From a virus (Duplodnaviria > Heunggongvirae > Uroviricota > Caudoviricetes): a DNA stretch of 8,326 bases. The notes under the pieces were generated by a model, which saw nothing but the letters and a program-made list of their open reading frames with translations, did not search any database and was not told where the DNA came from. This document shows, piece by piece, positions 23 through 8,326 of the stretch (its first letter is position 1; each line of letters starts with the position of its first letter). The DNA is taken from IMG/VR virus record IMGVR_UViG_3300039384_000072; one strand, written 5' to 3'. Made by a program: the position numbers and the translations under genes.

Positions 23-50
23 TTGCATGGTGGCGTGCGACAGGTATAAT
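23..50 (+). promoter_or_regulatory. Sigma70-type promoter for the tRNA-Leu gene: -35 TTGCAT (23-28), 16-bp spacer, -10 TATAAT (45-50)
   Basis: Read directly: near-consensus hexamers with canonical spacing, about 30 bp upstream of the tRNA 5' end. Confidence 0.55.
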
Positions 51-79
51 CCACAACGTTTTCCGCATACCTCTTCAGT

Positions 80-164
80 GCCGAAGTGGCGAAATCGGTA
101 GACGCAGTTGATTCAAAATCAACCGTAGAAATACGTGCCGGTTCGAGTCCGGCCTTCGGCACCA
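80..164 (+). tRNA. leuX: tRNA-Leu (anticodon CAA), 85 nt with encoded CCA; leuX-type, the known P4 integration target
   Basis: Read directly: acceptor stem GCCGAAG.../...CTTCGGC, D-arm with GG, anticodon stem gttga/tcaac around loop ttCAAaa, long variable arm, T-arm GGTTCGAGTCC, 3' CCA. The sequence matches my memory of E. coli leuX. Phage and island integration at tRNA 3' ends is established. Confidence 0.9.
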
Positions 165-327
165 TTAGCACTTCCAAGATCATCCGAGAAAGTCCAATTG
201 TTCCTTATAATTCAATGAGTTCAGTGATTCTTATGTCCGGAGTCGTCCGAGATTGTCCGTTGAAATCCGGATGCCATTGGGGGCATAATTAGGGGCATCT
301 TGACTTCGATTAGAAATGTGCCCCCAA

Positions 328-1584
328 ATGAAGCTCAACGCCAGACTGGTCGAGACCGCAAAGCCAAAAGACAAAACCTACAAAATGGCCGATGGTGGCG
401 GTTTGTATCTTGAGGTTTCGGCCAAGGGATCTAAATACTGGCGTATGAAATACAGACGCCCTTCAGACAAAAAAGAGGATCGCCTCGCTTTTGGCGTTTG
501 GCCTACTGTGACACTTGCCCAGGCAAGGGCAAAACGTGATGAAGCTAAAAGATTATTAGTGCAGGGTATTGATCCAAAAGCCGAGCAGAAAGCGGCTCAG
601 GCCGAGAAATCGGGGGCATATACTTTCGAAACGATCGCTCGTGAATGGCATGCCAGTAACAAGCGCTGGAGTGAAGACCATAGAGCGCGCGTTCTTCGCT
701 ATCTTGAGCTTTATATCTTCCCTCATATCGGATCGTCCGATATCCGCCAGCTTAAAACAAGCCACCTGTTAGCCCCGATTAAAAAAGTTGATGCCAGTGG
801 TAAGCATGACGTCGCGCAGCGTCTTCAGCAGCGTGTTACAGCTATTATGCGTTATGCCGTACAGAACGATTATATCGACTCAAACCCAGCCAGTGATATG
901 GCTGGTGCTTTATCGACAGTTAAAACACGACACTATCCAGCGTTACCCTCCCATCGTTTTCCCGAATTATTGGCACGTCTCGCTGCATATCGTGGTCGTA
1001 TAATGACAAAAATTGCGGTTCAGCTTTCTTTACTAACATTTGTTCGCTCAAGTGAATTACGCTTTGCTCGTTGGAGAGAGTTTGATTTTGATAACGCAAT
1101 TTGGCGTATTCCGGCAAAACGTGAAGAAATTAAAGGAGTGCGTTACTCATACCGTGGTATGAAAATGAAAGAAGAACATATTGTGCCATTAAGTCATCAA
1201 GCCATGGAACTCTTGAGGCAGCTAACACAAATTAGTGGTGATAAGGAGTTTCTTTTTCCTGGGGATCACGATGCTACGAAAGTTATGAGTGAAAATACGG
1301 TAAACAATGCTTTACGCTCAATGGGATATGACACCAAAACTGAAGTTTGTGGGCATGGATTTAGAACAATGGCGCGTGGAGCCTTGGGAGAGTCAGGATT
1401 ATGGAGTGATGACGCAATAGAGCGTCAGTTGAGTCATGCTGAGCGTAACAATGTGCGTGCTGCTTATATTCATACTTCAGAGCATTTAGATGAACGTCGG
1501 CTAATGATTCAGTGGTGGGCTGACTACTTGGGAGCAAATAAAGAAAAATATATCACACCTTATGATTATGCTAAGTCTGAATAG
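328..1584 (+). CDS. int: P4-type tyrosine integrase (site-specific recombinase)
   Basis: ORF track 316..1584. The N-terminus MKLNARLVETAKPKDKTYKMADGGGLYLEV...KYWRMKYR is the characteristic P4-integrase arm-binding region, and the C-terminal half carries catalytic-domain features (HGFR, terminal Y region). Start chosen at ATG 328 (MKLNAR); ATG 316 is an in-frame alternative. Lies immediately downstream of the tRNA. Confidence 0.9.
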   Translation: MKLNARLVETAKPKDKTYKMADGGGLYLEVSAKGSKYWRMKYRRPSDKKEDRLAFGVWPTVTLAQARAKRDEAKRLLVQGIDPKAEQKAAQAEKSGAYTFETIAREWHASNKRWSEDHRARVLRYLELYIFPHIGSSDIRQLKTSHLLAPIKKVDASGKHDVAQRLQQRVTAIMRYAVQNDYIDSNPASDMAGALSTVKTRHYPALPSHRFPELLARLAAYRGRIMTKIAVQLSLLTFVRSSELRFARWREFDFDNAIWRIPAKREEIKGVRYSYRGMKMKEEHIVPLSHQAMELLRQLTQISGDKEFLFPGDHDATKVMSENTVNNALRSMGYDTKTEVCGHGFRTMARGALGESGLWSDDAIERQLSHAERNNVRAAYIHTSEHLDERRLMIQWWADYLGANKEKYITPYDYAKSE

Positions 1585-1733
1585 CGGGTAACAGCTATTG
1601 TTATATTTTATGTTAACACTATCACGTTTTCTGAGATATCAATCTAACTTTGTTAGTAACTCAGGTAGGATTCAGTGTGGTATGTTAAGATTAATGATCT
1701 ATTGGATTAAGCTTTGATTTAAAGGAGGTTTTT

Positions 1734-3197
1734 ATGCCAAAGTTAAGAATATATTTTTCAGATTTTTTTAATGTATCTCCTGAAAAAATAAAAGAGTATG
1801 GTGCATTTAATATTTCTCTGATTAATGATTTGCCGCTATTTATTGATCCGTTTTTGTTATTTAATAATGAGAAATATATAGATTTACATCAGGGGATAAT
1901 TAAATATGTTTCTTTCTTAAGAGATCGTTCTCAGAATGGAGAATTAAATCGAGGTTTAATCAAAAGTTGGTTTTTATTTCCTGAGGTAAAACAAAACTGG
2001 CTGGGTTATAGCATGGTTGGGAACGGTGGGAGTGGATTGGGTATTGATTTTGCAAATTCCTTAATCACCTCATTTTCAAGTATTTTAAAAAACTTTGGTA
2101 AAGAGGAAATTACTGAGGGAAGTCATCTTGAAAAATTGTGTTTGATTAAGGAGGGGGTAGGAAAGGATAGTATTAGTGATTTTACCACTAATTTAATTAA
2201 ATCGTTTTTACTGAAGTATACTGAAGATTTCTCTAAAGAAAATATAGATAGTAAATATCTCTCTGAACACTTAGTACCAAAAGTTGAATTTAATTACGAA
2301 ACCAGAAGTTGGATGAGTAAAAAATTCACGTTGCCAACATATGCTGGAGATTATGTTCTTTTAACTCCGAGAGATATACTCACAAAAGATGAAACTTGGA
2401 TTAACAGAAATGAAATGATCGAGGACTTTAGAGATATATGTGAAAGTATCCCTAATGATCAATTGCGTGGACAATTGTCTGATTATTTCAATAGATGTCT
2501 CCCAGACTCTCCAAAGAAAAAGGAACGAGAGTCCGCTGCCGATTTGACAATTAAGAATTACCCGAGTTTTATTGATTATTATATTCGTTATAAAGAACAA
2601 AACTCTGGGGGTGCTAAACGTGATAGTAATGCAAAGGTTAGCGAAACTGAGCAAAGGTATATTGAAGCTGTCCAACTTTTGGTTGATACAATCTTTAATA
2701 AACATCAGGAGTTCTTTAGTTCAAAGGATGATACTTTCGAAGAGGCCTATAAGCGAGTCTGTTATCTTAAACAGGTAATAGAAAATAATGATGGCTATAA
2801 AGTATTCTATTTGAATGGTGTCCCAATTAAGCGTGAAGCTGATTTGCAGTTAATGTTTAGATTAACATGGTTTGCTAGTATTTCTGATGTCAATAGTGAA
2901 GTAAATAATGGTCGTGGTCCCGTTGACTACAAAATATCGAGAGGTTCGAAAGATAAAACATTGGTTGAATTCAAACTGGCTAGTAACTCCAAGCTTAAAC
3001 AGAATCTGGCAAATCAGGTTAAAGTGTATGAGGCGGCAAATGAAACAAAAAAATCAATAAAGGTTATTTTGTATTTTACTGATCGAGAATTGTCTGGATT
3101 GTTTAAGACTTTCAAAGAACTTGGGATTAAAGAAGGTAAGGATTTAGTCTTGATTGATGCTAGGCCTAATAAGGTTTCTGCATCGAATGTCAAATAA
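1734..3197 (+). CDS. Hypothetical 487-aa protein with a C-terminal PD-(D/E)xK / RecB-like nuclease signature; candidate single-gene anti-phage defence protein
   Basis: Strong RBS AGGAGG (1723-1728) 5 nt before ATG 1734; long uninterrupted ORF. By eye it is markedly AT-rich compared with flanking genes. C-terminal motifs read from the translation: acidic residue in READ, then GRGPVD (D398), VEFK (E412, K414), then QVKVY (Q428...Y432), the order and spacing expected for RecB/Cas4-like PD-(D/E)xK nucleases. The N-terminal ~380 aa have no motif I can assign. Followed by a hairpin plus T-run. Confidence 0.8.
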   Translation: MPKLRIYFSDFFNVSPEKIKEYGAFNISLINDLPLFIDPFLLFNNEKYIDLHQGIIKYVSFLRDRSQNGELNRGLIKSWFLFPEVKQNWLGYSMVGNGGSGLGIDFANSLITSFSSILKNFGKEEITEGSHLEKLCLIKEGVGKDSISDFTTNLIKSFLLKYTEDFSKENIDSKYLSEHLVPKVEFNYETRSWMSKKFTLPTYAGDYVLLTPRDILTKDETWINRNEMIEDFRDICESIPNDQLRGQLSDYFNRCLPDSPKKKERESAADLTIKNYPSFIDYYIRYKEQNSGGAKRDSNAKVSETEQRYIEAVQLLVDTIFNKHQEFFSSKDDTFEEAYKRVCYLKQVIENNDGYKVFYLNGVPIKREADLQLMFRLTWFASISDVNSEVNNGRGPVDYKISRGSKDKTLVEFKLASNSKLKQNLANQVKVYEAANETKKSIKVILYFTDRELSGLFKTFKELGIKEGKDLVLIDARPNKVSASNVK

Positions 3198-3220
3198 CTT
3201 GTTGGGAATGAGTATGATTT

Positions 3221-3245
3221 AAGCCGCATTATGGCGGCTTTTTAT
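3221..3245 (+). terminator. Rho-independent terminator downstream of the cargo ORF
   Basis: Stem aagccgc (3221-3227) pairs with gcggctt (3234-3240) around a 6-nt loop, followed by a T-run (3240-3244). Confidence 0.55.
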
Positions 3246-3379
3246 AATCTTCTTTTATTATGGTAACGACACTTTAGATGTATAGGGCAGTATTCATTTT
3301 AATAAACAGTTTTGCACATGAGCGTGATGGTATTAAGTATTTGTGAACTTTATTAAGTATGTAACAAGGTCTGCGCGCA

Positions 3380-3398
3380 GTGCTTTCCCCGCCTCGCC
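3380..3398. other. cos: cos site: P2/P4-type 19-nt cohesive-end sequence (reverse complement of GGCGAGGCGGGGAAAGCAC)
   Basis: Read directly: gtgctttccccgcctcgcc at 3380-3398 is the exact reverse complement of the P2/P4 cohesive-end 19-mer as I remember it. It is followed by a GC-rich hairpin (cccgcccgctttgcggggcgg) and lies between the variable region and psu, where cos sits in P4. Confidence 0.8.
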
Positions 3399-3500
3399 CG
3401 CCCGCTTTGCGGGGCGGTTTTAATGCAGTTGCACTGACACGCTCAGGCCGCGCCGGGAATGGCGCGGTTTGCAGAAAATGAGGCAGGAAAACGCATGCAA

Positions 3501-3532
3501 AGCCATGCACCTTATCGATGCATGGCTTTTTT
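3501..3532 (+). terminator. Hairpin with T-run (terminator-like) between cos and the psu 3' end
   Basis: Stem agccatgca (3501-3509) pairs with tgcatggct (3519-3527), followed by a T-run (3527-3532). Orientation and function are uncertain; it could be part of the cos-flanking recognition region. Confidence 0.4.
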
Positions 3533-3562
3533 CAGTAAAAACGGGCGGATTTTCGGGGAGTT

Positions 3563-4135
3563 TTACACAGACTGATGTGATACCAGTTGCGCACTTTTAC
3601 GCGAAAAAATCATGTTCTGCGCAGGGGTGAATTTTTCACGGCTGTCATCCACCGAAGCCGCGTCAGGCCTGAATCCGATGGTCGTTAAAATGTCGCTATC
3701 CTGTGCGGAATAATTAATTTTTTCCCCCTTCGCAAGCCAGGACAGAAGGGCTTCACGCAGGGCATCTGTGGCACGCTGTATGGCACAGTTTCGGGCAATG
3801 GCCGTCAGCTCACTGTAGCCCATCAGCTCCGGTGCCAGTGCGGCCGCCAGTGCTGTGCCGTGCTGCTGCATAAAATCATTCAGCCGGTCGCGGATGCTGA
3901 TGTGCTGAACGGCTTCATGCGAACGAATATAACGACCGGCAGCCTGATTCACCTGCCATTTTCTGACTTCGATAATATTGCGTAATTCGTCCAGGCGACT
4001 GACGTTTCTGCCTTCCCCGGACAGAAGCCGCAGATATTCCTGTTCGGCCGCAGCCAGCTCATTTTTGCGTTGCAGCCATGCTGCTTTGTTATTCTGACAG
4101 GTGTCAAAGGCCTGCTGTAAGGCTGTGCTTTCCAT
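3563..4135 (-). CDS. psu: Psu (polarity suppression protein / capsid-decoration protein), 190 aa
   Basis: ORF track 3563..4135 minus, 190 aa, beginning MESTALQQAFDTCQ. Length and N-terminus match my memory of P4 Psu. Position is last gene of the sid-delta-psu operon, next to cos. Confidence 0.85.
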   Translation of the reverse strand: MESTALQQAFDTCQNNKAAWLQRKNELAAAEQEYLRLLSGEGRNVSRLDELRNIIEVRKWQVNQAAGRYIRSHEAVQHISIRDRLNDFMQQHGTALAAALAPELMGYSELTAIARNCAIQRATDALREALLSWLAKGEKINYSAQDSDILTTIGFRPDAASVDDSREKFTPAQNMIFSRKSAQLVSHQSV

Positions 4136-4208
4136 CGTTATCTCTTTCTCATCATGCTGAAGAATAAAAATACGGTGTGCGGCGACGGCCGGTGTTAACC
4201 GGCAGCCT

Positions 4209-4709
4209 TCATTCCAGACGCAGCGAATATGATTGTGTTTTTAACCGTACTGGCGGCAGTTCCTGTTTTTCATGCAGGCGTTCTGCCAGTTCGTCCGGTG
4301 TGACCGGGCGGACAATGAAGCGGTTGATGGTCTGAAGCGTTTTAAACACCAGACCACAGCCCGGCTCCGTGCACACATAAAAACGTTCGGTGACTTCCTG
4401 AGACAGACGCCGCGATGTTCTTGACAGTGCAAGGCCTTTACATCTCCGACAACAATATCCGGTAACAAGCATTCTTTTCGGGCGTTTCATACTGCCGGAG
4501 GCAGAAGTCAGTGAATCGCGGTATCTCTGTTTGCCTGAAATGTATTCCATTCCTGAATCTTTACAGTCAGAGAAAAAGCTTTCACTCGCTTCAAATGTCG
4601 CAGAGCAATAAATATTCCGGCACTGTGCAATCATTATCTTGGTGCCATCGTCCATGAAATGTGCGCGACGGGTGTGAGCAACATGTCCACACGACGGGCA
4701 GTAAATCAT
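4209..4709 (-). CDS. delta: Delta late-gene transcriptional activator (tandem Ogr-like zinc-finger protein), 166 aa
   Basis: Two Ogr-type Cys clusters in one polypeptide (CPSCGH...C...YC and CCRRC...CTEPGC), which is the known duplicated-Ogr architecture of P4 delta. The start codon overlaps the sid stop (ATGA at 4706-4709 on the minus strand). Confidence 0.85.
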   Translation of the reverse strand: MIYCPSCGHVAHTRRAHFMDDGTKIMIAQCRNIYCSATFEASESFFSDCKDSGMEYISGKQRYRDSLTSASGSMKRPKRMLVTGYCCRRCKGLALSRTSRRLSQEVTERFYVCTEPGCGLVFKTLQTINRFIVRPVTPDELAERLHEKQELPPVRLKTQSYSLRLE

Positions 4710-5440
4710 GACAGCAGTCCTCTGGCCTTAAGCTCTGCTCCCTGCTGGTCTATTTTGTCCTGCCACACCTTGCGCTGTGCCGGTGTGCCTGCCACCTCAT
4801 AATCCATGTGCGGGAGTGTTGCCGCTGACAGTCCGGTCAGCCGGAGAACCGGCTCACCGCTGAGGCTGATTTGCATCTGTTTTATTTTCTGTTCCAGCGA
4901 TGATTTCACCTGCTGCATGACAGCCTTTTCCGGTGCGATGTAGCCCTGATGGCCGGTGGTGTTGGCGAGCGGATTTTCCTGTACCAGGATGCTCAGATGC
5001 ATTGCCCGGACAAGCGCCTCACAGGTTTCATTCAGGGCGTGTTCCAGCTCATGCTCTGCATACAGACTCAGAAGGTGATGATGTGCCTTCCGGTAGGCGG
5101 TGGCCGTGCTGTCACACGCCCCTTTCAGGCGTTCGCGTTCAAAATTCAGCACCACGGCCAGATTGTCATATTCCTGTACCAGCTCCCGGCGTGCCACGCG
5201 CTCAATGTGGCGCTGTTTCAGCTCATCGCTCAGGACACCACCGGCTGCACGAAAGGCCGTGCGCCAGTCGTCAGCGTCGTTTCCGTCGGCCTGCGCCAGC
5301 GCATTTTTTTCCTGCTCTGCCCGTTCAATGGCCGTGACGGTCTCATCCATCAGGCGGGCGTTCTCAAGATGGGCGGCTCTGGCCTTTTCCAGTTGTGCCA
5401 GCGCGGGTTGCAGATATTCAGGGATGGTGTTGTCAGACAT
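4706..5440 (-). CDS. sid: Sid (external scaffold / capsid size determination protein), 244 aa from the second in-frame ATG
   Basis: The ORF track gives 250 aa from ATG 5458. The in-frame ATG at 5440 (MSDNTIPEYL...) has a GAGGAA Shine-Dalgarno about 8 nt upstream and gives 244 aa, matching my memory of P4 Sid. The protein is alpha-helical and Ala/Glu/Leu-rich, as expected for a scaffold. Confidence 0.8.
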   Translation of the reverse strand: MSDNTIPEYLQPALAQLEKARAAHLENARLMDETVTAIERAEQEKNALAQADGNDADDWRTAFRAAGGVLSDELKQRHIERVARRELVQEYDNLAVVLNFERERLKGACDSTATAYRKAHHHLLSLYAEHELEHALNETCEALVRAMHLSILVQENPLANTTGHQGYIAPEKAVMQQVKSSLEQKIKQMQISLSGEPVLRLTGLSAATLPHMDYEVAGTPAQRKVWQDKIDQQGAELKARGLLS

Positions 5441-5474
5441 TTTCCGGTTCCTCGTCACTTCAGGTTAAGAAAAT

Positions 5475-5492
5475 TGTGACGTACACCGGACA
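5475..5492. promoter_or_regulatory. TGT-N12-ACA dyad (Ogr/delta-type activator site), promoter-proximal site of Psid
   Basis: Read directly: TGT (5475-5477), 12 nt, ACA (5490-5492). It lies 38 bp from the dyad at 5513-5530, consistent with -55 and about -17 sites upstream of sid. Confidence 0.5.
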
Positions 5493-5512
5493 ACAACACG
5501 ACGCATTGCAGA

Positions 5513-5530
5513 TGTGCCAGCCCTGACACA
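5513..5530. promoter_or_regulatory. TGT-N12-ACA dyad (Ogr/delta-type activator site), candidate -55 site of the late promoter Psid
   Basis: Read directly: TGT (5513-5515), 12 nt, ACA (5528-5530), about 80 bp upstream of the sid start codon on the minus strand. P2/P4 late promoters are known to be activated through TGT-N12-ACA sites centred near -55. Confidence 0.55.
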
Positions 5531-5612
5531 GGAGACTCATCCTCAGACCGGCAAGCCAGGAAAAGGTCGCAGGAAAAACCGGCTTACTGTTTGTTTTTTT
5601 TTATATTTTACT

Positions 5613-5715
5613 GTTCACCTCTGTTCACAATAAGAAAAAAGATAAGTAATACAGTAAGTTAAAGGGTGAACAATCGCAGTAATGACTGTTCACCGTCTGT
5701 TCACCACTGTTCACC
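5613..5715. repeat. crr: Iteron cluster: six copies of the octamer TGTTCACC (five direct, one inverted), candidate alpha-binding cis replication region (crr)
   Basis: Read directly: TGTTCACC at 5613-5620, 5688-5695, 5698-5705 and 5708-5715; variant TGTTCACA at 5623-5630; inverted GGTGAACA at 5665-5672. TGTTCACC is, from memory, the P4 alpha-protein binding octamer found in ori and crr. Confidence 0.6.
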
Positions 5716-5873
5716 CGTTGATGGGCTTTTTGTGCTGTTTATTACTTTTTATTTTTATTAATTCACTGAAATAAATAAGAAAAAACAATTTGTATTTCAC
5801 TATAATTTTTTCCAGCTCCTTCCAGAGCGTTTTAAAGCTATCTGGCGCTGATGTACAAAAAATGCACAGCCAT

Positions 5874-5891
5874 TGTAAGGCTGCCGGAACA
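5874..5891. promoter_or_regulatory. TGT-N12-ACA dyad, candidate -55 activator site of the late leftward-type promoter (PLL analogue) driving vis
   Basis: Read directly: TGT (5874-5876), 12 nt, ACA (5889-5891). A site centred here places a transcription start near 5937, about 57 nt upstream of the vis ATG at 5994. Confidence 0.5.
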
Positions 5892-5993
5892 AATCCCCCC
5901 TGTTGCGTCTGCCGAAAATATTCACAAAATAAAGCGCTACCCGAAGCCGGACGGACTTATCCGGTGCTGTATGGACATTAACGAGGTAGCCCG

Positions 5994-6260
5994 ATGCAAG
6001 CTGTTTTTTCTTCCCCGTCTCCCGCCCCTGTGACGCCACTGATGCCGCTGCCGGACATCACACAGGAGCGTTTTTTACGTCTTCCGGAAGTGATGCACCT
6101 GTGCGGCCTGTCACGCTCGACCATCTACGAACTCATCCGTAAGGGGGAATTTCCGCCGCAGGTGAGTCTTGGCGGTAAAAATGTGGCCTGGCTGCACTCT
6201 GAAGTCACCGCATGGATGGCCGGCCGCATTGCCGGACGCAAACGGGGGTACGACGCATGA
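5994..6260 (+). CDS. vis: Vis/AlpA-family small DNA-binding protein (excision/regulatory), 88 aa
   Basis: RBS GAGGT (5983-5987) 6 nt before ATG 5994. The C-terminal half [44 protein letters not shown] is the AlpA/Vis-type helix-turn-helix signature. The 88-aa length matches my memory of P4 Vis. Confidence 0.75.
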
Positions 6261-6295
6261 TGATGCCTGTTCTGCAAAAAGTCCCTTTTTCTGGC

Positions 6296-6325
6296 TTGCC
6301 TTTTTCCGGCATTTGCGGATATAGT
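6296..6325 (+). promoter_or_regulatory. Candidate early/immunity promoter (PLE analogue): -35 TTGCCT (6296-6301), 18-bp spacer, -10 TATAGT (6320-6325)
   Basis: Read directly; lies just downstream of vis and upstream of the structured leader region. Confidence 0.35.
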
Positions 6326-6356
6326 TTTTCCGCTGTCGCAAAATCGGCAGCCGGGC

Positions 6357-6647
6357 GTGGAAACCCGAGCAATCTAACGGCGACATATGACGCGCCATGC
6401 GTCTTTTTTTGTGTCGCAATCAACGCCACAGAGCGCCAGATTATGGTGTGGTGTGTGGTCAGTCGAGCAGATGGAACTCCGTGCATCCTGCCCGCGTCCG
6501 CTCATTATGCCGCAGAGTCAATGGTAGCTCAGGCGGGGCAGCCTCCGGGCTGGCCGGTATCCGTTAGAGCCGGTATTTCCACCCCCGTCTGGGCTATCGC
6601 CATCGAGCGTGGAAACTCCGGCGATAGCGTAACCTGCTATCTAACGG
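6357..6647 (+). ncRNA. Candidate P4-type RNA immunity region: transcribed leader with seqA-like (6357-6380), seqB-like (6561-6582) and seqC-like (6609-6647) elements
   Basis: Read directly: GTGGAAAC...ATCTAACGG occurs at 6357-6380 and again at 6609-6647. The element CCGTTAGA...TTTCCAC at 6561-6582 is complementary to both ends of each copy. Additional local hairpins, e.g. gctatcgcc (6593-6601) pairing with ggcgatagc (6620-6628). The precise RNA ends cannot be determined from sequence. Confidence 0.35.
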
Positions 6648-6658
6648 AGGCTGCCATC

Positions 6659-6856
6659 ATGGCTACAACCCTTACCCCTTCACACCCTGAATTTGTCTTT
6701 GTGTTTGCGGCTGTCCGTCGCGCAGACCGTCATCCCCGTATCTGCATGCTTCGCACCGTCGCCGGTGATGAACGCAGTGCCCGCCGTTCCCTTGTCCGTG
6801 ACTATGTGCTCTCCCTTGCTGCCCGTCTGCCGGTGGTGGAGGTGTCCCGTGCGTAA
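6659..6856 (+). CDS. Small protein, 65 aa, possibly Icd-like host cell division inhibitor / Ash-region protein of P4-like elements
   Basis: RBS GGAGG (6646-6650) 8 nt before ATG 6659. The frame is open from 6212, so in-frame ATGs at 6521 and 6443 are possible alternative starts. Family assignment rests on position within the immunity region and a vague sequence recollection, so it is uncertain. Confidence 0.45.
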
Positions 6857-7136
6857 TAAAAAAGCCCCTCAGACCGTCTCAGCGCGTCATGACGCCCGTG
6901 AACACCTCAGCATTGAGGCTTACCATAAGCTCAACCGCGCCAGCGCCGTATCCCAGTTTGTTGGGGGTGATTTGATTCACCGTGAACTCTCCGGCCTGCA
7001 TCAGCTCTACATTCCGCATATTTTCAGCTACCTGAATGAAGATATTGATTTTGTGCTGAATGAGCTGAAAGCCAAAGGCCTGTGCCGCGATTTTCTCGCC
7101 CAGCAGAAAGACCGGGGAGACAAGACGCATGTTTGA
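6849..7136 (+). CDS. Hypothetical small protein, about 95 aa, at the position of P4 epsilon (helper derepression protein)
   Basis: The ORF track's 6693..7136 frame has no ATG beyond 6693, and that ATG overlaps the preceding gene. GTG 6849 is preceded by GGAGG (6838-6842) with a 6-nt spacer. The 3' end overlaps the next ORF (ATG 7129, stop 7134-7136), suggesting translational coupling. The epsilon assignment is positional only. Confidence 0.5.
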
Positions 7137-7584
7137 TTTTCCCCAGCCCGGTGAGATTTACCGTTCTGCCGGTTTTCCCGATGTGGCCGTGGTCGGCATT
7201 CTGGAAGACGGTATTCCGTGGGAAATGCCGTACCGCTGCCCGGACATTGTCTGGAACCCGTACCGCCGTAAATTCAGTATCCTTGTGCGTATCCTCGCTG
7301 ACGGGCGCACCACAGACATCCCGCTGGGGCGTTTTCTGCGGGAATTTACCTGTGACCGTCCTGACCTGTTTAAACGCAGCCCCGTAAACCGGCATGCGGT
7401 ACTGAAAGAAATGGCCGGAGACCCGGAATTACAGAAATGGCGGGAGAAATATCTGGATATTTACCCGCAGGCCCCTGTTCCGGTCAGCCGGGCGGCACCG
7501 GTGGCGCGGGAATGGCGGGAAATTCCCCGCACGGAGCCTGACCCGGAAATCACCCCGGATAACAGTTACCGCAATTATCTGTAA
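7129..7584 (+). CDS. Hypothetical protein, 151 aa; same size and position as P4 orf151 upstream of alpha
   Basis: ORF track 7129..7584, 151 aa; purine-rich GGGGAG about 9 nt upstream; coupled to the upstream ORF. Protein-like composition. Function unknown. Confidence 0.7.
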   Translation: MFDFPQPGEIYRSAGFPDVAVVGILEDGIPWEMPYRCPDIVWNPYRRKFSILVRILADGRTTDIPLGRFLREFTCDRPDLFKRSPVNRHAVLKEMAGDPELQKWREKYLDIYPQAPVPVSRAAPVAREWREIPRTEPDPEITPDNSYRNYL

Positions 7585-7719
7585 TTAAAAAACGACACCC
7601 GAAAAATTAAATGTGCGTATTCGCGCAGGGATACGCACGTCTTCAGGAGACGCAGATATGCCTTATCAGTTAATGCAACCGGCACGGAATGCAGTCATCT
7701 GTCACAGGGAGGAAAACAA

Positions 7720-8040
7720 ATGAAAACACCCTTACCGCCCGTCTTACGTGCTGCCCTTTACCGTCGCGCTGTCGCCTGTGCCTGGCTGACCGTGTGCGAA
7801 CGTCAGCACCGCTACCCGCATCTCACCCTTGAGTCACTGGAGGCGGCCATCGCCGCTGAGCTGGAAGGCTTTTATCTGCGCCAGCACGGTGAGGAAAAAG
7901 GGCGTCAGATAGCCTGTGCCCTGCTGGAAGATTTAATGGAATCCGGCCCCCTGAAGGCCGCGCCGTCGCTGTCCTTTCTCGGGCTGGTTGTGATGGATGA
8001 ACTCTGTGCCCGTCACATAAAAGCGCCGGTACTGCACTGA
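7720..8040 (+). CDS. Hypothetical protein, 106 aa, immediately upstream of the primase gene
   Basis: RBS GGGAGG (7707-7712) 7 nt before ATG 7720. Ends 14 nt before the primase start, consistent with one operon. Confidence 0.65.
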
Positions 8041-8054
8041 AGGAGAACAACACC

Positions 8055-8326
8055 ATGAAAATGAACGTAACCGCCACCGTCAGCCATGCGCTCGGCCACT
8101 GGCCGCGTATTCTCCCGGCGCTGGGGATTCAGGTGCTGAAAAACCGTCATCAGCCCTGTCCGGTCTGTGGCGGGAGTGACCGCTTCCGTTTTGATGACAG
8201 GGAGGGGCGCGGCACCTGGTACTGCAATCAGTGTGGTGCCGGTGACGGCCTGAAACTGGTTGGAAAGGTGTTTGGTGTCTCTCCGTCCGACGCGGCCGCA
8301 AAGGTGGCTGCCGTGACCGGCAGCCT
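8055..8326 (+). CDS. alpha: Alpha-type primase/helicase, N-terminal fragment (primase zinc-ribbon domain); 3' end outside the window
   Basis: RBS AAGGAG (8040-8045) 9 nt before ATG 8055; open to the window end. Translation MKMNVTATVSHALGHWPRILPALGIQVLKNRHQPCPVCGGSDRFRFDDREGRGTWYCNQCGAGDGLKLV contains the CxxC...CxxC zinc-ribbon typical of P4 alpha / T7 gp4-type primases. Not in the ORF track because there is no stop in the window. Confidence 0.8.
   Translation, partial: MKMNVTATVSHALGHWPRILPALGIQVLKNRHQPCPVCGGSDRFRFDDREGRGTWYCNQCGAGDGLKLVGKVFGVSPSDAAAKVAAVTGS

What the first reader, a model, noticed from the sequence alone, without database searches (positions are those of the whole stretch)
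23..8326. Window is the integrase-proximal part of a P4-family phage satellite integrated at tRNA-Leu(CAA)
The gene order tRNA, int, variable cargo, cos, psu, delta, sid (minus strand), regulatory region, vis, immunity region, small ORFs, alpha primase reproduces the P4 genome architecture as I remember it. The protein lengths (Psu 190, delta 166, Sid 244, Vis 88, orf151) match remembered P4 values. The cos 19-mer and the TGTTCACC iterons are P4/P2-specific sequence signatures read directly from the DNA. The element looks intact in this portion: no frameshifts or premature stops are evident in the recognised genes, so it may be a mobilisable satellite dependent on a P2-like helper.
Basis: partly seen in the sequence, partly recalled or inferred. 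Interest (0 to 1): 0.45.

Follow-up and report, generated by a model that had tools for sequence, protein, structure and literature searches.

The report
P4-like phage satellite at leuX
This is an ordinary, apparently intact relative of the well-known E. coli phage satellite P4, inserted in the leuX tRNA gene; its only unstudied part is one swapped-in cargo gene that looks like an anti-phage nuclease.

Summary
The window runs from the host tRNA-Leu(CAA) gene (80-164) through about 8.2 kb of a 10.8-kb P4-family satellite prophage. The order is attL, int, cargo, cos, psu, delta, sid, ori iterons, vis, CI-RNA immunity region, eps, orf151, orf106 and the first 90 codons of alpha.

Core proteins are 98-100% identical to phage P4 (Int 92%) and have the same lengths. 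The 19-nt cos sequence is exact. Five exact TGTTCACC iterons sit where P4's ori repeats lie. A genome that differs from the window by one base carries full-length alpha, crr and an attR repeat, so the refutation test fails to refute.

Three things differ from P4:
- The int-cos hotspot holds a single low-GC 487-aa gene (DUF8370/DUF8371) instead of gop/beta/cII.
- The immunity determinants seqA, seqB and seqC carry covarying substitutions, which predicts immunity distinct from P4's.
- P4's type II ori decamers are not conserved.

The cargo has a C-terminal restriction-endonuclease-like fold and occurs as a solitary gene in other satellites, a prophage, a cassette array and an ICE. This exact protein is already listed in a published catalogue of P4 hotspot loci. 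The element is already known in kind, and interest is low.

The parts
23..50 (+). Host leuX promoter-like hexamers (TTGCAT, 16 nt, TATAAT). This is host DNA, not part of the satellite.
   Evidence: Read directly from the sequence. It falls below the threshold of the consensus scan. Positions 1-164 match nearly all E. coli genomes and Salmonella chromosomes.
80..164 (+). tRNA-Leu(CAA) gene (leuX), the integration target
   Evidence: ARAGORN. Rfam tRNA, 59.4 bits.
145..164 (+). attL core, 20 bp, GAGTCCGGCCTTCGGCACCA. It is identical to the P4 attP core and forms the 3' end of the tRNA.
   Evidence: The P4 annotation 'attP core' at L002 7528-7547 has the same 20 bases. P4 homology starts at window 141.
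277..300 (+). Int arm-type binding repeats (TTGGGGGCATAATTAGGGGCAT)
   Evidence: Aligns with the P4 'attP arm sequence repeat' pair at L002 7660-7683.
316..1584 (+). int, a P4-type tyrosine integrase (422 aa; RefSeq starts it at 328)
   Evidence: 92% identical to P4 Int over 414 aa. Pfam Arm-DNA-bind_3, Phage_int_M and Phage_integrase.
1585..3369 (.). Variable hotspot module. GC is about 0.29-0.36, against about 0.5-0.6 in the satellite core. It replaces P4's gop-beta-cII.
   Evidence: No P4 homology between 1531 and 3373. Composition. Only 11 of 5426 complete E. coli genomes carry a match spanning at least 80% of the window, cargo included.
1734..3197 (+). Cargo gene, 487 aa, DUF8370/DUF8371. 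A helical N-terminal region is followed by a C-terminal PD-(D/E)xK-like nuclease domain (P396-V-D398 ... E412-F-K414). AGGAGG lies 6 nt upstream of the ATG.
3221..3240 (+). Terminator-like hairpin plus T-run after the cargo gene
3370..3445 (-). cos region. The 19-nt cohesive-end sequence lies at 3380-3398.
   Evidence: Exact 19-mer. Both ends of the linear P4 record meet here. 3373-3445 matches P2-like phages at 90-95% identity.
3563..4135 (-). psu (190 aa), capsid decoration and Rho antagonist
   Evidence: 98% identical to P4 Psu. Pfam Psu, E=2e-88.
4209..4709 (-). delta (166 aa), a tandem Ogr/Delta zinc-finger late-gene activator
   Evidence: 98% identical to P4 Delta. Pfam Ogr_Delta, 2 stretches.
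4706..5440 (-). sid (244 aa), the capsid size-determining external scaffold
   Evidence: 99% identical to P4 Sid. RefSeq names it 'capsid size-determining scaffold Sid'.
5612..5715 (.). ori type I iterons: TGTTCACC, 5 exact copies plus one 7/8 copy at 5622-5629
   Evidence: They are co-linear with the P4 'ori type 1 repeat' annotations.
5994..6260 (+). vis / alpA (88 aa), excisionase and late-promoter regulator
   Evidence: 99% identical to P4 ORF88. Pfam Phage_AlpA.
6296..6325 (+). Promoter-like site (TTGCCT, 18 nt, TATAGT) at the position I take to be P4's PLE promoter
   Evidence: Consensus scan. The sequence is identical in P4. Assigning it to PLE rests on my own knowledge of P4.
6332..6409 (+). 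Leader RNA containing seqA (6352-6382) and a terminator hairpin. It matches Rfam isrK.
   Evidence: Rfam isrK, 72.5 bits against a gathering score of 50. [quoted passage not shown]
6517..6604 (+). CI RNA, the antisense immunity factor containing seqB (6552-6587)
   Evidence: Rfam C4, 76.2 bits against a gathering score of 45. MFE -48.1 kcal/mol.
6604..6650 (+). seqC, the second target of CI RNA
   Evidence: Repeat family D8 with seqA. The duplex with seqB is -35.2 kcal/mol.
6257..6856 (+). Annotated Ash/Icd-like ORF that overlaps the RNA immunity region. Its coding status is uncertain.
   Evidence: Pfam Phage_ASH. NCBIfam phage_ICD_like. RefSeq annotation.
6849..7136 (+). epsilon (95 aa), the helper derepression protein
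   Evidence: 98% identical to P4 Eps. Pfam Derepression.
7129..7584 (+). orf151
   Evidence: 98% identical to P4 ORF151.
7720..8040 (+). orf106 (cnr, DUF5375)
   Evidence: 100% identical to P4 ORF106. Pfam DUF5375. The name cnr is given in PMC8628076.
8055..8326 (+). alpha primase-helicase, first 90 codons, cut by the end of the window
   Evidence: 99% identical to the P4 alpha N-terminus. It is full length (777 aa, 99%) in the near-identical genome.

Best explanation
The window is the attL-to-alpha portion of a complete ('Type A') P4-like phage satellite integrated in the 3' end of the leuX tRNA-Leu(CAA) gene of Escherichia coli. It is a very close relative of phage P4 itself.

The mechanism below is inferred from P4 biology; none of it was tested here.
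- **Integration:** Int recombined the 20-bp attP core with the identical tRNA 3' end, which regenerated the tRNA at attL.
- **Prophage state:** transcription from the early promoter is stopped prematurely, because the processed CI RNA (seqB) pairs with seqA and seqC on the nascent transcript.
- **Activation by a P2-like helper:** Eps inactivates the helper repressor, and Delta and the helper's Ogr cross-activate late promoters. Vis plus Int excise the element. Alpha replicates it from the TGTTCACC iterons of ori and crr.
- **Packaging:** Sid builds an external scaffold that forces the helper's capsid protein into a small shell, which Psu stabilises. The helper terminase cuts and packages the roughly 10.8-kb genome at cos.

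Between int and cos lies the known satellite defence hotspot. Here it holds a single horizontally acquired gene for a 487-aa protein with a C-terminal PD-(D/E)xK nuclease-like domain. That gene most likely protects the host, and so the satellite, from other phages.

The immunity determinants differ from P4's in a covarying way. I therefore predict that this satellite is heteroimmune to P4.
For: **P4 identity.**
- DNA identity to P4 is 94.4% over everything except the cargo.
- Nine P4 proteins are 98-100% identical with identical lengths, and Int is 92%.
- All seven family-defining components listed in PMC8628076 are present in P4's order: int, psu, delta, sid, alpA, eps, alpha.

**Cis elements and regulatory RNAs.**
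- The cos 19-mer is exact and is flanked by both P4 ends.
- The iterons are strongly enriched and co-linear with P4's ori.
- The CI RNA and the seqA leader are recognised by Rfam above gathering scores.
- The tRNA and the att core are confirmed.

**Completeness.**
- A genome differing from the window by one base completes the element with alpha, crr and attR. P4 homology ends exactly at the core.

**Cargo.**
- The hotspot position matches Rousset et al. 2022, and the exact cargo protein is in their locus table.
- It is a solitary gene in a Klebsiella P4-like hotspot, a prophage, a Vibrio cassette array and an ICE beside CBASS.

**Immunity.**
- Cognate seqB-seqA and seqB-seqC duplexes are -33 to -35 kcal/mol in both elements. 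Cross-pairs are -21 to -27 kcal/mol.
Against: - **No function was tested.** Excision, replication, packaging, immunity and defence were not assayed.
- **attR is imperfect.** The window lacks attR. In relatives only the first 14 nt of the core are perfectly repeated. NZ_OZ547117 has 19/20 with one G missing, and the 98.5% relative and the Klebsiella element have other variants. This could lower or abolish excision.
- **Helper not sought.** I did not check whether the host genome carries a P2-like helper.
- **ori differs.** P4's three 'type 2' ori decamers are not conserved here. The effect on replication or Vis regulation is unknown.
Confidence: 0.93

Rival explanations
1. The element is a cryptic, anchored P4-like prophage. 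Its genes are intact, but it can no longer excise or transfer, so it now serves only as a fixed chromosomal carrier of the cargo gene and a regulator of helper phages.
For: - attR in the near-identical genome lacks one G of the 20-bp core.
- In the 98.5% relative and in the Klebsiella element the right part of the core also differs from the tRNA 3' end.
- A decayed second integrase island and IS elements follow attR directly, which shows that the leuX locus accumulates immobile remnants.
- P4's type II ori decamers are not conserved.
Against: - All reading frames are full length and 98-100% identical to functional P4.
- cos, the ori/crr iterons and the CI RNA are intact.
- The same element at 98-100% identity occurs in unrelated strains from human, bovine, pig, chicken and mouse sources. 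That fits recent horizontal spread.
- The first 14 nt of the core are perfectly repeated.
Confidence: 0.2
2. The element is bacteriophage P4 itself, or a laboratory-type P4 lysogen, not a distinct relative.
For: Core proteins are 98-100% identical to P4. The att core, cos and iterons are the same.
Against: - gop, beta and cII are absent and replaced by an unrelated 1.8-kb module.
- int DNA is only 84% identical to P4's.
- seqA, seqB and seqC differ at six positions each, in concert.
- The type II ori repeats differ.
Confidence: 0.01
3. The region is a generic leuX genomic or pathogenicity island that merely uses a P4-type integrase and is not a phage satellite.
For: leuX is a common island insertion site. 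A second integrase-bearing remnant lies next door in the relative.
Against: All satellite-specific functions are present and near-identical to P4: Sid, Psu, Delta, Eps, alpha, cos and the CI RNA.
Confidence: 0.01

Closest known systems
Enterobacteria phage P4 (NC_001609 / X51522)
   Same: It shares the integration site (the leuX 20-bp core), gene order, cos 19-mer, ori type I iterons and CI-RNA immunity architecture. Psu, Delta, Sid, Vis, Eps, orf151, orf106 and alpha are 98-100% identical, and Int is 92%.
   Different: - The hotspot carries one 487-aa DUF8370/DUF8371 gene instead of gop-beta-cII.
- The last 8 residues of Int differ, and Int is 17 aa shorter.
- seqA, seqB and seqC carry concerted substitutions (GTGAGAA to GTGGAAA; TTCACAGG to TCTAACGG).
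- The three type II ori decamers are not conserved.
- The element is about 10.8 kb, against 11.6 kb for P4.
P4-like satellites of Enterobacterales with a defence hotspot between psu/cos and int (Rousset et al. 2022, PMC9122126; Moura de Sousa & Rocha 2021, PMC8628076; Moura de Sousa et al. 2026, PMC13586616)
   Same: It has the complete seven-component set in the commonest order, a variable low-GC module directly next to cos, and conserved core genes. The exact cargo protein WP_001572310 appears in the 2022 locus table.
   Different: The cargo is not among the systems those papers describe as validated, as far as the held text shows. It is rare: only 11 of 5426 complete E. coli genomes carry a match spanning at least 80% of the window, cargo included.
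PADLOC candidate system PDC-M36 (component A)
   Same: The N-terminal 325 residues of the cargo match the PDC-M36A profile at E=4e-21.
   Different: The match stops at profile position 324 of 457, so the C-terminal nuclease-like domain is not covered. No conserved partner gene was found in five different contexts. I found no paper that mentions PDC-M36.
Type II restriction endonucleases of the BamHI/BstYI/BglII/OkrAI group (PD-(D/E)xK fold)
   Different: Sequence identity is 6-11%. There is no adjacent methyltransferase. A 350-residue, largely helical N-terminal region has no recognisable relative.
P1/P7 c4 and P4 CI antisense RNAs (Rfam C4, RF01695) and IsrK/SeqA RNA (RF01394)
   Same: Both RNAs score well above the gathering thresholds: 76.2 against 45, and 72.5 against 50.
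   Different: The recognition loops differ from P4's, with matching changes in both targets.

Membership tests
P4-like phage satellites (definition of Moura de Sousa & Rocha, PMC8628076) | Integrase homologue | tested here: met
   316-1584; 92% identical to P4 Int; Pfam integrase domains.
P4-like phage satellites (definition of Moura de Sousa & Rocha, PMC8628076) | psu homologue | tested here: met
   3563-4135 (-); 98% identical to P4 Psu; Pfam Psu E=2e-88.
P4-like phage satellites (definition of Moura de Sousa & Rocha, PMC8628076) | delta homologue | tested here: met
   4209-4709 (-); 98% identical to P4 Delta; Ogr_Delta domain twice.
P4-like phage satellites (definition of Moura de Sousa & Rocha, PMC8628076) | sid homologue | tested here: met
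   4706-5440 (-); 99% identical to P4 Sid.
P4-like phage satellites (definition of Moura de Sousa & Rocha, PMC8628076) | alpA (vis) homologue, not a pseudogene | tested here: met
   5994-6260; 88 aa; 99% identical to P4 ORF88; Pfam Phage_AlpA.
P4-like phage satellites (definition of Moura de Sousa & Rocha, PMC8628076) | epsilon homologue | tested here: met
   6849-7136; 98% identical to P4 Eps; Pfam Derepression.
P4-like phage satellites (definition of Moura de Sousa & Rocha, PMC8628076) | alpha primase-helicase homologue | tested here: met
   Only 90 codons lie in the window, and they are 99% identical to P4. The gene is full length (777 aa, 99%) in a genome that differs from the window by one base.
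P4-like phage satellites (definition of Moura de Sousa & Rocha, PMC8628076) | Components co-localised in P4's order | tested here: met
   The order int, psu, delta, sid, alpA, eps, alpha is the organisation of 77% of Type A elements.
P4-like phage satellites (functional criteria) | P2-type cos site for packaging by the helper terminase | tested here: met
   The 19-mer is exact, and the flanks match the P4 ends and P2-like phages. Cleavage itself was not tested.
P4-like phage satellites (functional criteria) | Flanking att repeats (attL and attR) | tested here: inconclusive
   attL is perfect in the window. attR lies outside it. In the near-identical genome attR has 19 of the 20 core bases with one G missing, and other relatives show other variants.
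P4-like phage satellites (functional criteria) | Helper-dependent induction, capsid size redirection and transfer | not testable with these tools
   Requires infection or induction experiments with a P2-like phage.
PD-(D/E)xK nuclease superfamily (cargo C-terminal domain) | Alpha-beta-beta-beta-alpha-beta core fold | tested here: inconclusive
PD-(D/E)xK nuclease superfamily (cargo C-terminal domain) | Catalytic D ... (D/E)-x-K motif on consecutive strands | tested here: met
   D398 lies on strand 398-402, and E412 and K414 lie on strand 408-415. All three are invariant in 32 homologues down to 61% identity.
PD-(D/E)xK nuclease superfamily (cargo C-terminal domain) | Metal-dependent nuclease activity | not testable with these tools
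   Requires biochemistry.
PADLOC candidate defence system PDC-M36 | Match to the component A profile | tested here: inconclusive
   E=4e-21, but only profile positions 5-324 of 457 are matched.
PADLOC candidate defence system PDC-M36 | Presence of the system's other component(s) | tested here: inconclusive
   I do not know the composition of PDC-M36. The window has no second cargo gene, and neighbours in four other contexts gave no PDC-M36 hits.
Rfam C4 antisense RNA family (RF01695) | Score at or above the gathering threshold over the full model | tested here: met
   76.2 bits against 45, model positions 1-87 of 87.

The most novel reading that the evidence does not exclude
The 487-aa DUF8370/DUF8371 cargo (1734-3197) could be an unvalidated single-gene anti-phage system. 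In this reading a large helical N-terminal sensor domain controls a C-terminal PD-(D/E)xK nuclease.

The family is very large, with more than 6,800 clusters at 90% identity. It is unusually conserved, at 60% identity or more from Enterobacteria to Chlorobium. It moves as a solitary gene between P4-like satellites, prophages, integron-like cassette arrays and ICEs.

A second, smaller point is that the concerted changes in seqA, seqB and seqC would define an immunity type distinct from P4's.
Probability: 0.5. Interest if true: 0.45.

Novelty: already known. Interest (0 to 1): 0.17.

Why it matters
As a satellite it adds nothing new. P4-like elements occur in a large share of E. coli genomes. This sequence is present at 98-100% identity and annotated in RefSeq genomes, and its hotspot locus is already in a published catalogue.

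The practical value is threefold:
- It gives a clean, fully parsed annotation of the window.
- It flags a widespread, uncharacterised nuclease-like gene in a position where most tested unknown genes have proved to be antiviral: 6 of 8 in PMC13586616.
- It offers a natural example of covarying RNA-RNA immunity determinants that could be used to test the rules of P4 immunity specificity.

Tried and rejected
- **Family searches on the cargo.** Pfam-A and NCBIfam gave no significant hit. The held Pfam copy lacks PF28123 and PF28130.
- **Solved structures.** A profile search against PDB sequences found nothing, best E=0.19. Foldseek against the PDB found nothing at E of 0.001 or below.
- **Literature.** Searches for 'PDC-M36' and 'DUF8370' returned no papers. 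The supplements of the 2026 P4/P2 hotspot paper are not held, so I could not tell whether this locus was among its eight tested unknowns. A search for papers on Vibrio integron cassette defence found nothing that mentions this family.
- **Partner gene.** I looked for a conserved second gene next to cargo homologues and found none. The small ORFs at 3014-3229 and 3274-3510, which are possible counterparts of the second 'hypothetical' in Rousset's table, are not in the protein collection. The second of them spans cos, so I do not treat either as a gene.
- **Repeat family D1** (830, 1583, 5826). I considered it as possible protein-binding sites and left it as a probable chance match.
- **Tool problem.** The P4 locus L002 never appeared in /data for scripts. 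P4 comparisons were therefore done with the alignment tools, and the P4 seqA, seqB and seqC sequences were typed in.
- **Not done.** I did not search the host genome for a P2-like helper, because no tool restricts a search to one genome.

Full report
**Observation.** The window holds one tRNA gene, tRNA-Leu(CAA), at 80-164.
- Psu, 190 aa (3563-4135, -)
- Delta, 166 aa (4209-4709, -)
- Sid, 244 aa from its ATG (4706-5440, -)
- Vis, 88 aa (5994-6260, +)
- orf151 (7129-7584, +)
- orf106 (7720-8040, +)
- an ORF that starts at 8055 and runs off the end of the window

The cos 19-mer GGCGAGGCGGGGAAAGCAC is present exactly once, at 3380-3398 on the minus strand. The chance expectation is 0.01 even with three mismatches allowed. 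TGTTCACC occurs five times exactly within 5612-5715, against 0.19 expected in the whole window. A sixth, 7/8 copy lies at 5622-5629.

**Identity with P4.**
- Megablast against 50,697 phage records puts phage P4 first. It covers window 141-8326 except the cargo, which is 76% of the window at 94.4% identity.
- Protein comparisons with the annotated P4 genes (L002) give Int 92% over 414 aa, Psu 98%, Delta 98%, Sid 99%, Vis 99%, Eps 98%, orf151 98% and orf106 100%. The first 90 residues of alpha are 99% identical.
- All these proteins except Int have exactly P4's length. Int loses P4 similarity in its last eight residues, where the variable module begins.
- Pfam independently recognises the integrase domains, Psu, Ogr_Delta (twice), Phage_AlpA, Phage_ASH, Derepression and DUF5375.
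- Rfam finds the CI immunity RNA (family C4, 76.2 bits, 6517-6604). It also finds the upstream seqA leader (family isrK, 72.5 bits, 6332-6409). [quoted passage not shown]

**Ends of the element.**
- The last 20 nt of the tRNA (145-164) equal the annotated P4 attP core. P4's int-side arm, including the GGGGGCAT arm repeats at 277-300, follows directly.
- attR lies outside the window, so I used the closest genome. NZ_OZ547117 (L001) differs from the window only by one T in a T-run at 5594-5602.
- In that genome alpha is complete, at 777 aa and 99% identity to P4. The terminator and both 120-bp crr repeats follow.
- P4 homology ends exactly after GAGTCCGGCCTTCG-CACCA at L001 19935-19953. The element is therefore about 10.8 kb.
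- This attR lacks one G of the core. A 98.5% relative has GAGTCCGGCCTTCGCCCCA, and a Klebsiella satellite has GAGTCCGGCCTTCGCCCCCA. Only the first 14 nt are perfectly repeated in all three.
- Beyond attR in L001 lie a decayed second integrase gene and IS elements. The satellite therefore sits at the head of a tandem array of islands at leuX.

**cos and the hotspot.**
- The two ends of the linear P4 record meet at 3398/3399. P4 similarity on the cargo side ends about 10 nt beyond the 19-mer, at about 3370.
- On the other side, P4 similarity stops at about 1531-1557, inside the int 3' end.
- The 1.8 kb in between has GC of about 0.29-0.36, against about 0.5-0.6 for the core. It replaces P4's gop, beta and cII.
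- This is the hotspot between psu/cos and int described by Rousset et al. 2022.
- Only 11 of 5,426 complete E. coli genomes carry a match spanning at least 80% of the window, this cargo included. Many more match about 78% of it and hold other cargo, such as the beta/sce7726 genes.

**The cargo gene.**
- It is a single ORF (1734-3197, 487 aa) with an AGGAGG ribosome-binding site and a terminator-like hairpin at 3221-3240.
- It has no hit in the held Pfam-A or NCBIfam copies. RefSeq calls it DUF8370, and precomputed Pfam labels are PF28123 plus PF28130.
- PADLOC matches the candidate component PDC-M36A at E=4e-21, but only over residues 5-329. PHROGs places it in families of unknown function.
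- The family is very large: at least 6,895 clusters passed E of 0.001 or below. It is strikingly conserved, with 60-65% identity in Vibrio, Neisseria, Xanthomonas, Methylomagnum and Chlorobium.
- Homologues appear as solitary genes in four kinds of element. These are the same hotspot of Klebsiella P4-like satellites, a prophage, a one-directional cassette array in Vibrio parahaemolyticus, and an ICE beside a relaxase and a CBASS operon. No partner gene recurs.
- An AlphaFold2 model from 32 homologues is mediocre overall (pLDDT 67.9) but better in the C-terminal 90 residues.
- D398, E412 and K414 lie on consecutive predicted strands and are invariant.
- I therefore read the protein as a nuclease with a large, unassigned N-terminal domain, and as a probable single-gene defence. 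This is inference from fold, motif and context.
- The exact protein (WP_001572310) is already listed as a P4 hotspot locus in Rousset's Table S1A, with no function given. All 24 named members among the 40 cluster members read are called hypothetical or uncharacterised.
- A 2026 study found 6 of 8 randomly chosen unknown P4 loci to be protective. I could not establish whether this one was among them.

**Immunity region.**
- The alignment with P4 is 97% identical overall, but the differences cluster.
- In seqA, in seqB (inside the CI RNA) and in seqC, the two pairing blocks change together. P4's GTGAGAA and TTCACAGG become GTGGAAA and TCTAACGG, with the complementary changes in seqB.
- Predicted duplex energies are -33.6 and -35.2 kcal/mol for this element's cognate pairs. 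For P4's they are -34.4 and -32.9. The four cross-combinations give -21 to -27.
- Concerted change of this kind is how P4-like elements are known to alter immunity specificity. I recall this being shown for retronphage phiR73, from my own knowledge. The papers are not in the searchable library.
- Among the 5,426 complete genomes, 49 share this CI+seqC stretch at 99% identity or more, and 894 have any match.

**A second divergent patch.** Positions of about 5805-5865 are only about 50% identical to P4 within otherwise near-identical flanks. The patch covers P4's three annotated 'ori type 2' decamers, which are therefore not conserved here. I did not pursue what that means for replication or for Vis regulation.

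**Mechanism.** Everything about how the element works is taken from established P4 biology, as summarised in PMC8628076 and PMC9122126 and from my own knowledge. It is supported here only by sequence conservation.
- Int-mediated integration at leuX.
- CI-RNA-dependent premature termination in the prophage.
- Eps-mediated helper derepression.
- Delta/Ogr cross-activation of late promoters.
- Vis-assisted excision.
- Alpha-driven replication from ori and crr.
- Sid and Psu redirection of the helper capsid.
- Packaging at cos by the helper terminase.

None of these steps was tested. The presence of a P2-like helper in the host was not examined.

**Comparison and verdict.**
[quoted passage not shown] It also has cos, the iterons and the immunity RNAs.
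- It is not P4 itself, because the cargo, the int DNA (84% identity), the immunity loops and the type II repeats differ.
- It is a member of a well-described, very common family, and it is already present and annotated in public genomes. I rate it as already known and of low interest.
- The main uncertainty is whether the imperfect attR still allows excision.
- The only part with discovery potential is the cargo gene.

Noticed in passing
window 6352-6382 (seqA), 6552-6587 (seqB in CI RNA), 6604-6650 (seqC): All three immunity determinants differ from P4 at the same six positions, in a base-pair-preserving way. Cognate duplexes are -33 to -35 kcal/mol and cross-pairs with P4 are -21 to -27. This predicts an immunity type different from P4's. 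Among 5,426 complete E. coli genomes, 49 share this stretch at 99% identity or more.
   Followed up: partly
window ~5805-5865 (between the ori iterons and vis): A patch of about 60 nt is only about 50% identical to P4 inside 97-99% identical flanks. It replaces P4's three annotated 'ori type 2' decamers (CTTTAAGTGG / CTTTAAATGA / CTTTAAGTGG).
   Followed up: no
L001 19935-19953; L010 15434-15452; L007 18947-18966: The attR cores of this satellite and its relatives are imperfect copies of the tRNA 3' end. One has a G missing, and the others read GCCCCA or GCCCCCA instead of GGCACCA. Only the first 14 nt (GAGTCCGGCCTTCG) are always perfect.
   Followed up: partly
L001 19628-23780 (downstream of attR in the near-identical genome): A second island follows the satellite directly. 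It has a pseudogenised tyrosine recombinase and IS3, IS30 and IS600 fragments, so leuX carries a tandem array of integrated elements.
   Followed up: no
window 6332-6409: The Rfam isrK family, described for a Salmonella Gifsy-1 sRNA, matches the P4-type early leader with seqA and its terminator. This agrees with the published remark that IsrK is a structural homologue of the SeqA RNA.
   Followed up: yes
L007 10477-11340 (Klebsiella P4-like satellite): The Klebsiella satellite carries an 88%-identical copy of the cargo. It has an extra, oppositely oriented 287-aa gene in the hotspot, with weak HNH and type IV restriction-enzyme hits (E about 1e-3). That gene is absent from the window.
   Followed up: partly
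L005 / L006 (Vibrio parahaemolyticus), gene at 8001-9455 / 6898-8352: A 64%-identical cargo homologue sits in a long array of same-strand genes, mostly small, separated by short spacers. It looks like a chromosomal integron cassette array. I did not check for attC sites.
   Followed up: no
window 6257-6856: RefSeq annotates a 199-aa 'Icd-like' protein (Pfam Phage_ASH) across the stretch that encodes the seqA leader, the CI RNA and seqC. P4's own record has only a 137-aa ORF there. Whether the ORF is translated is unclear.
   Followed up: no
window 830-846, 1583-1599, 5826-5842: A 17-nt motif (AGCGTGTTACAGCTATT and variants at 82-88% identity) occurs inside int, at the int stop codon, and inside the diverged type II repeat patch. 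It may well be chance.
   Followed up: no
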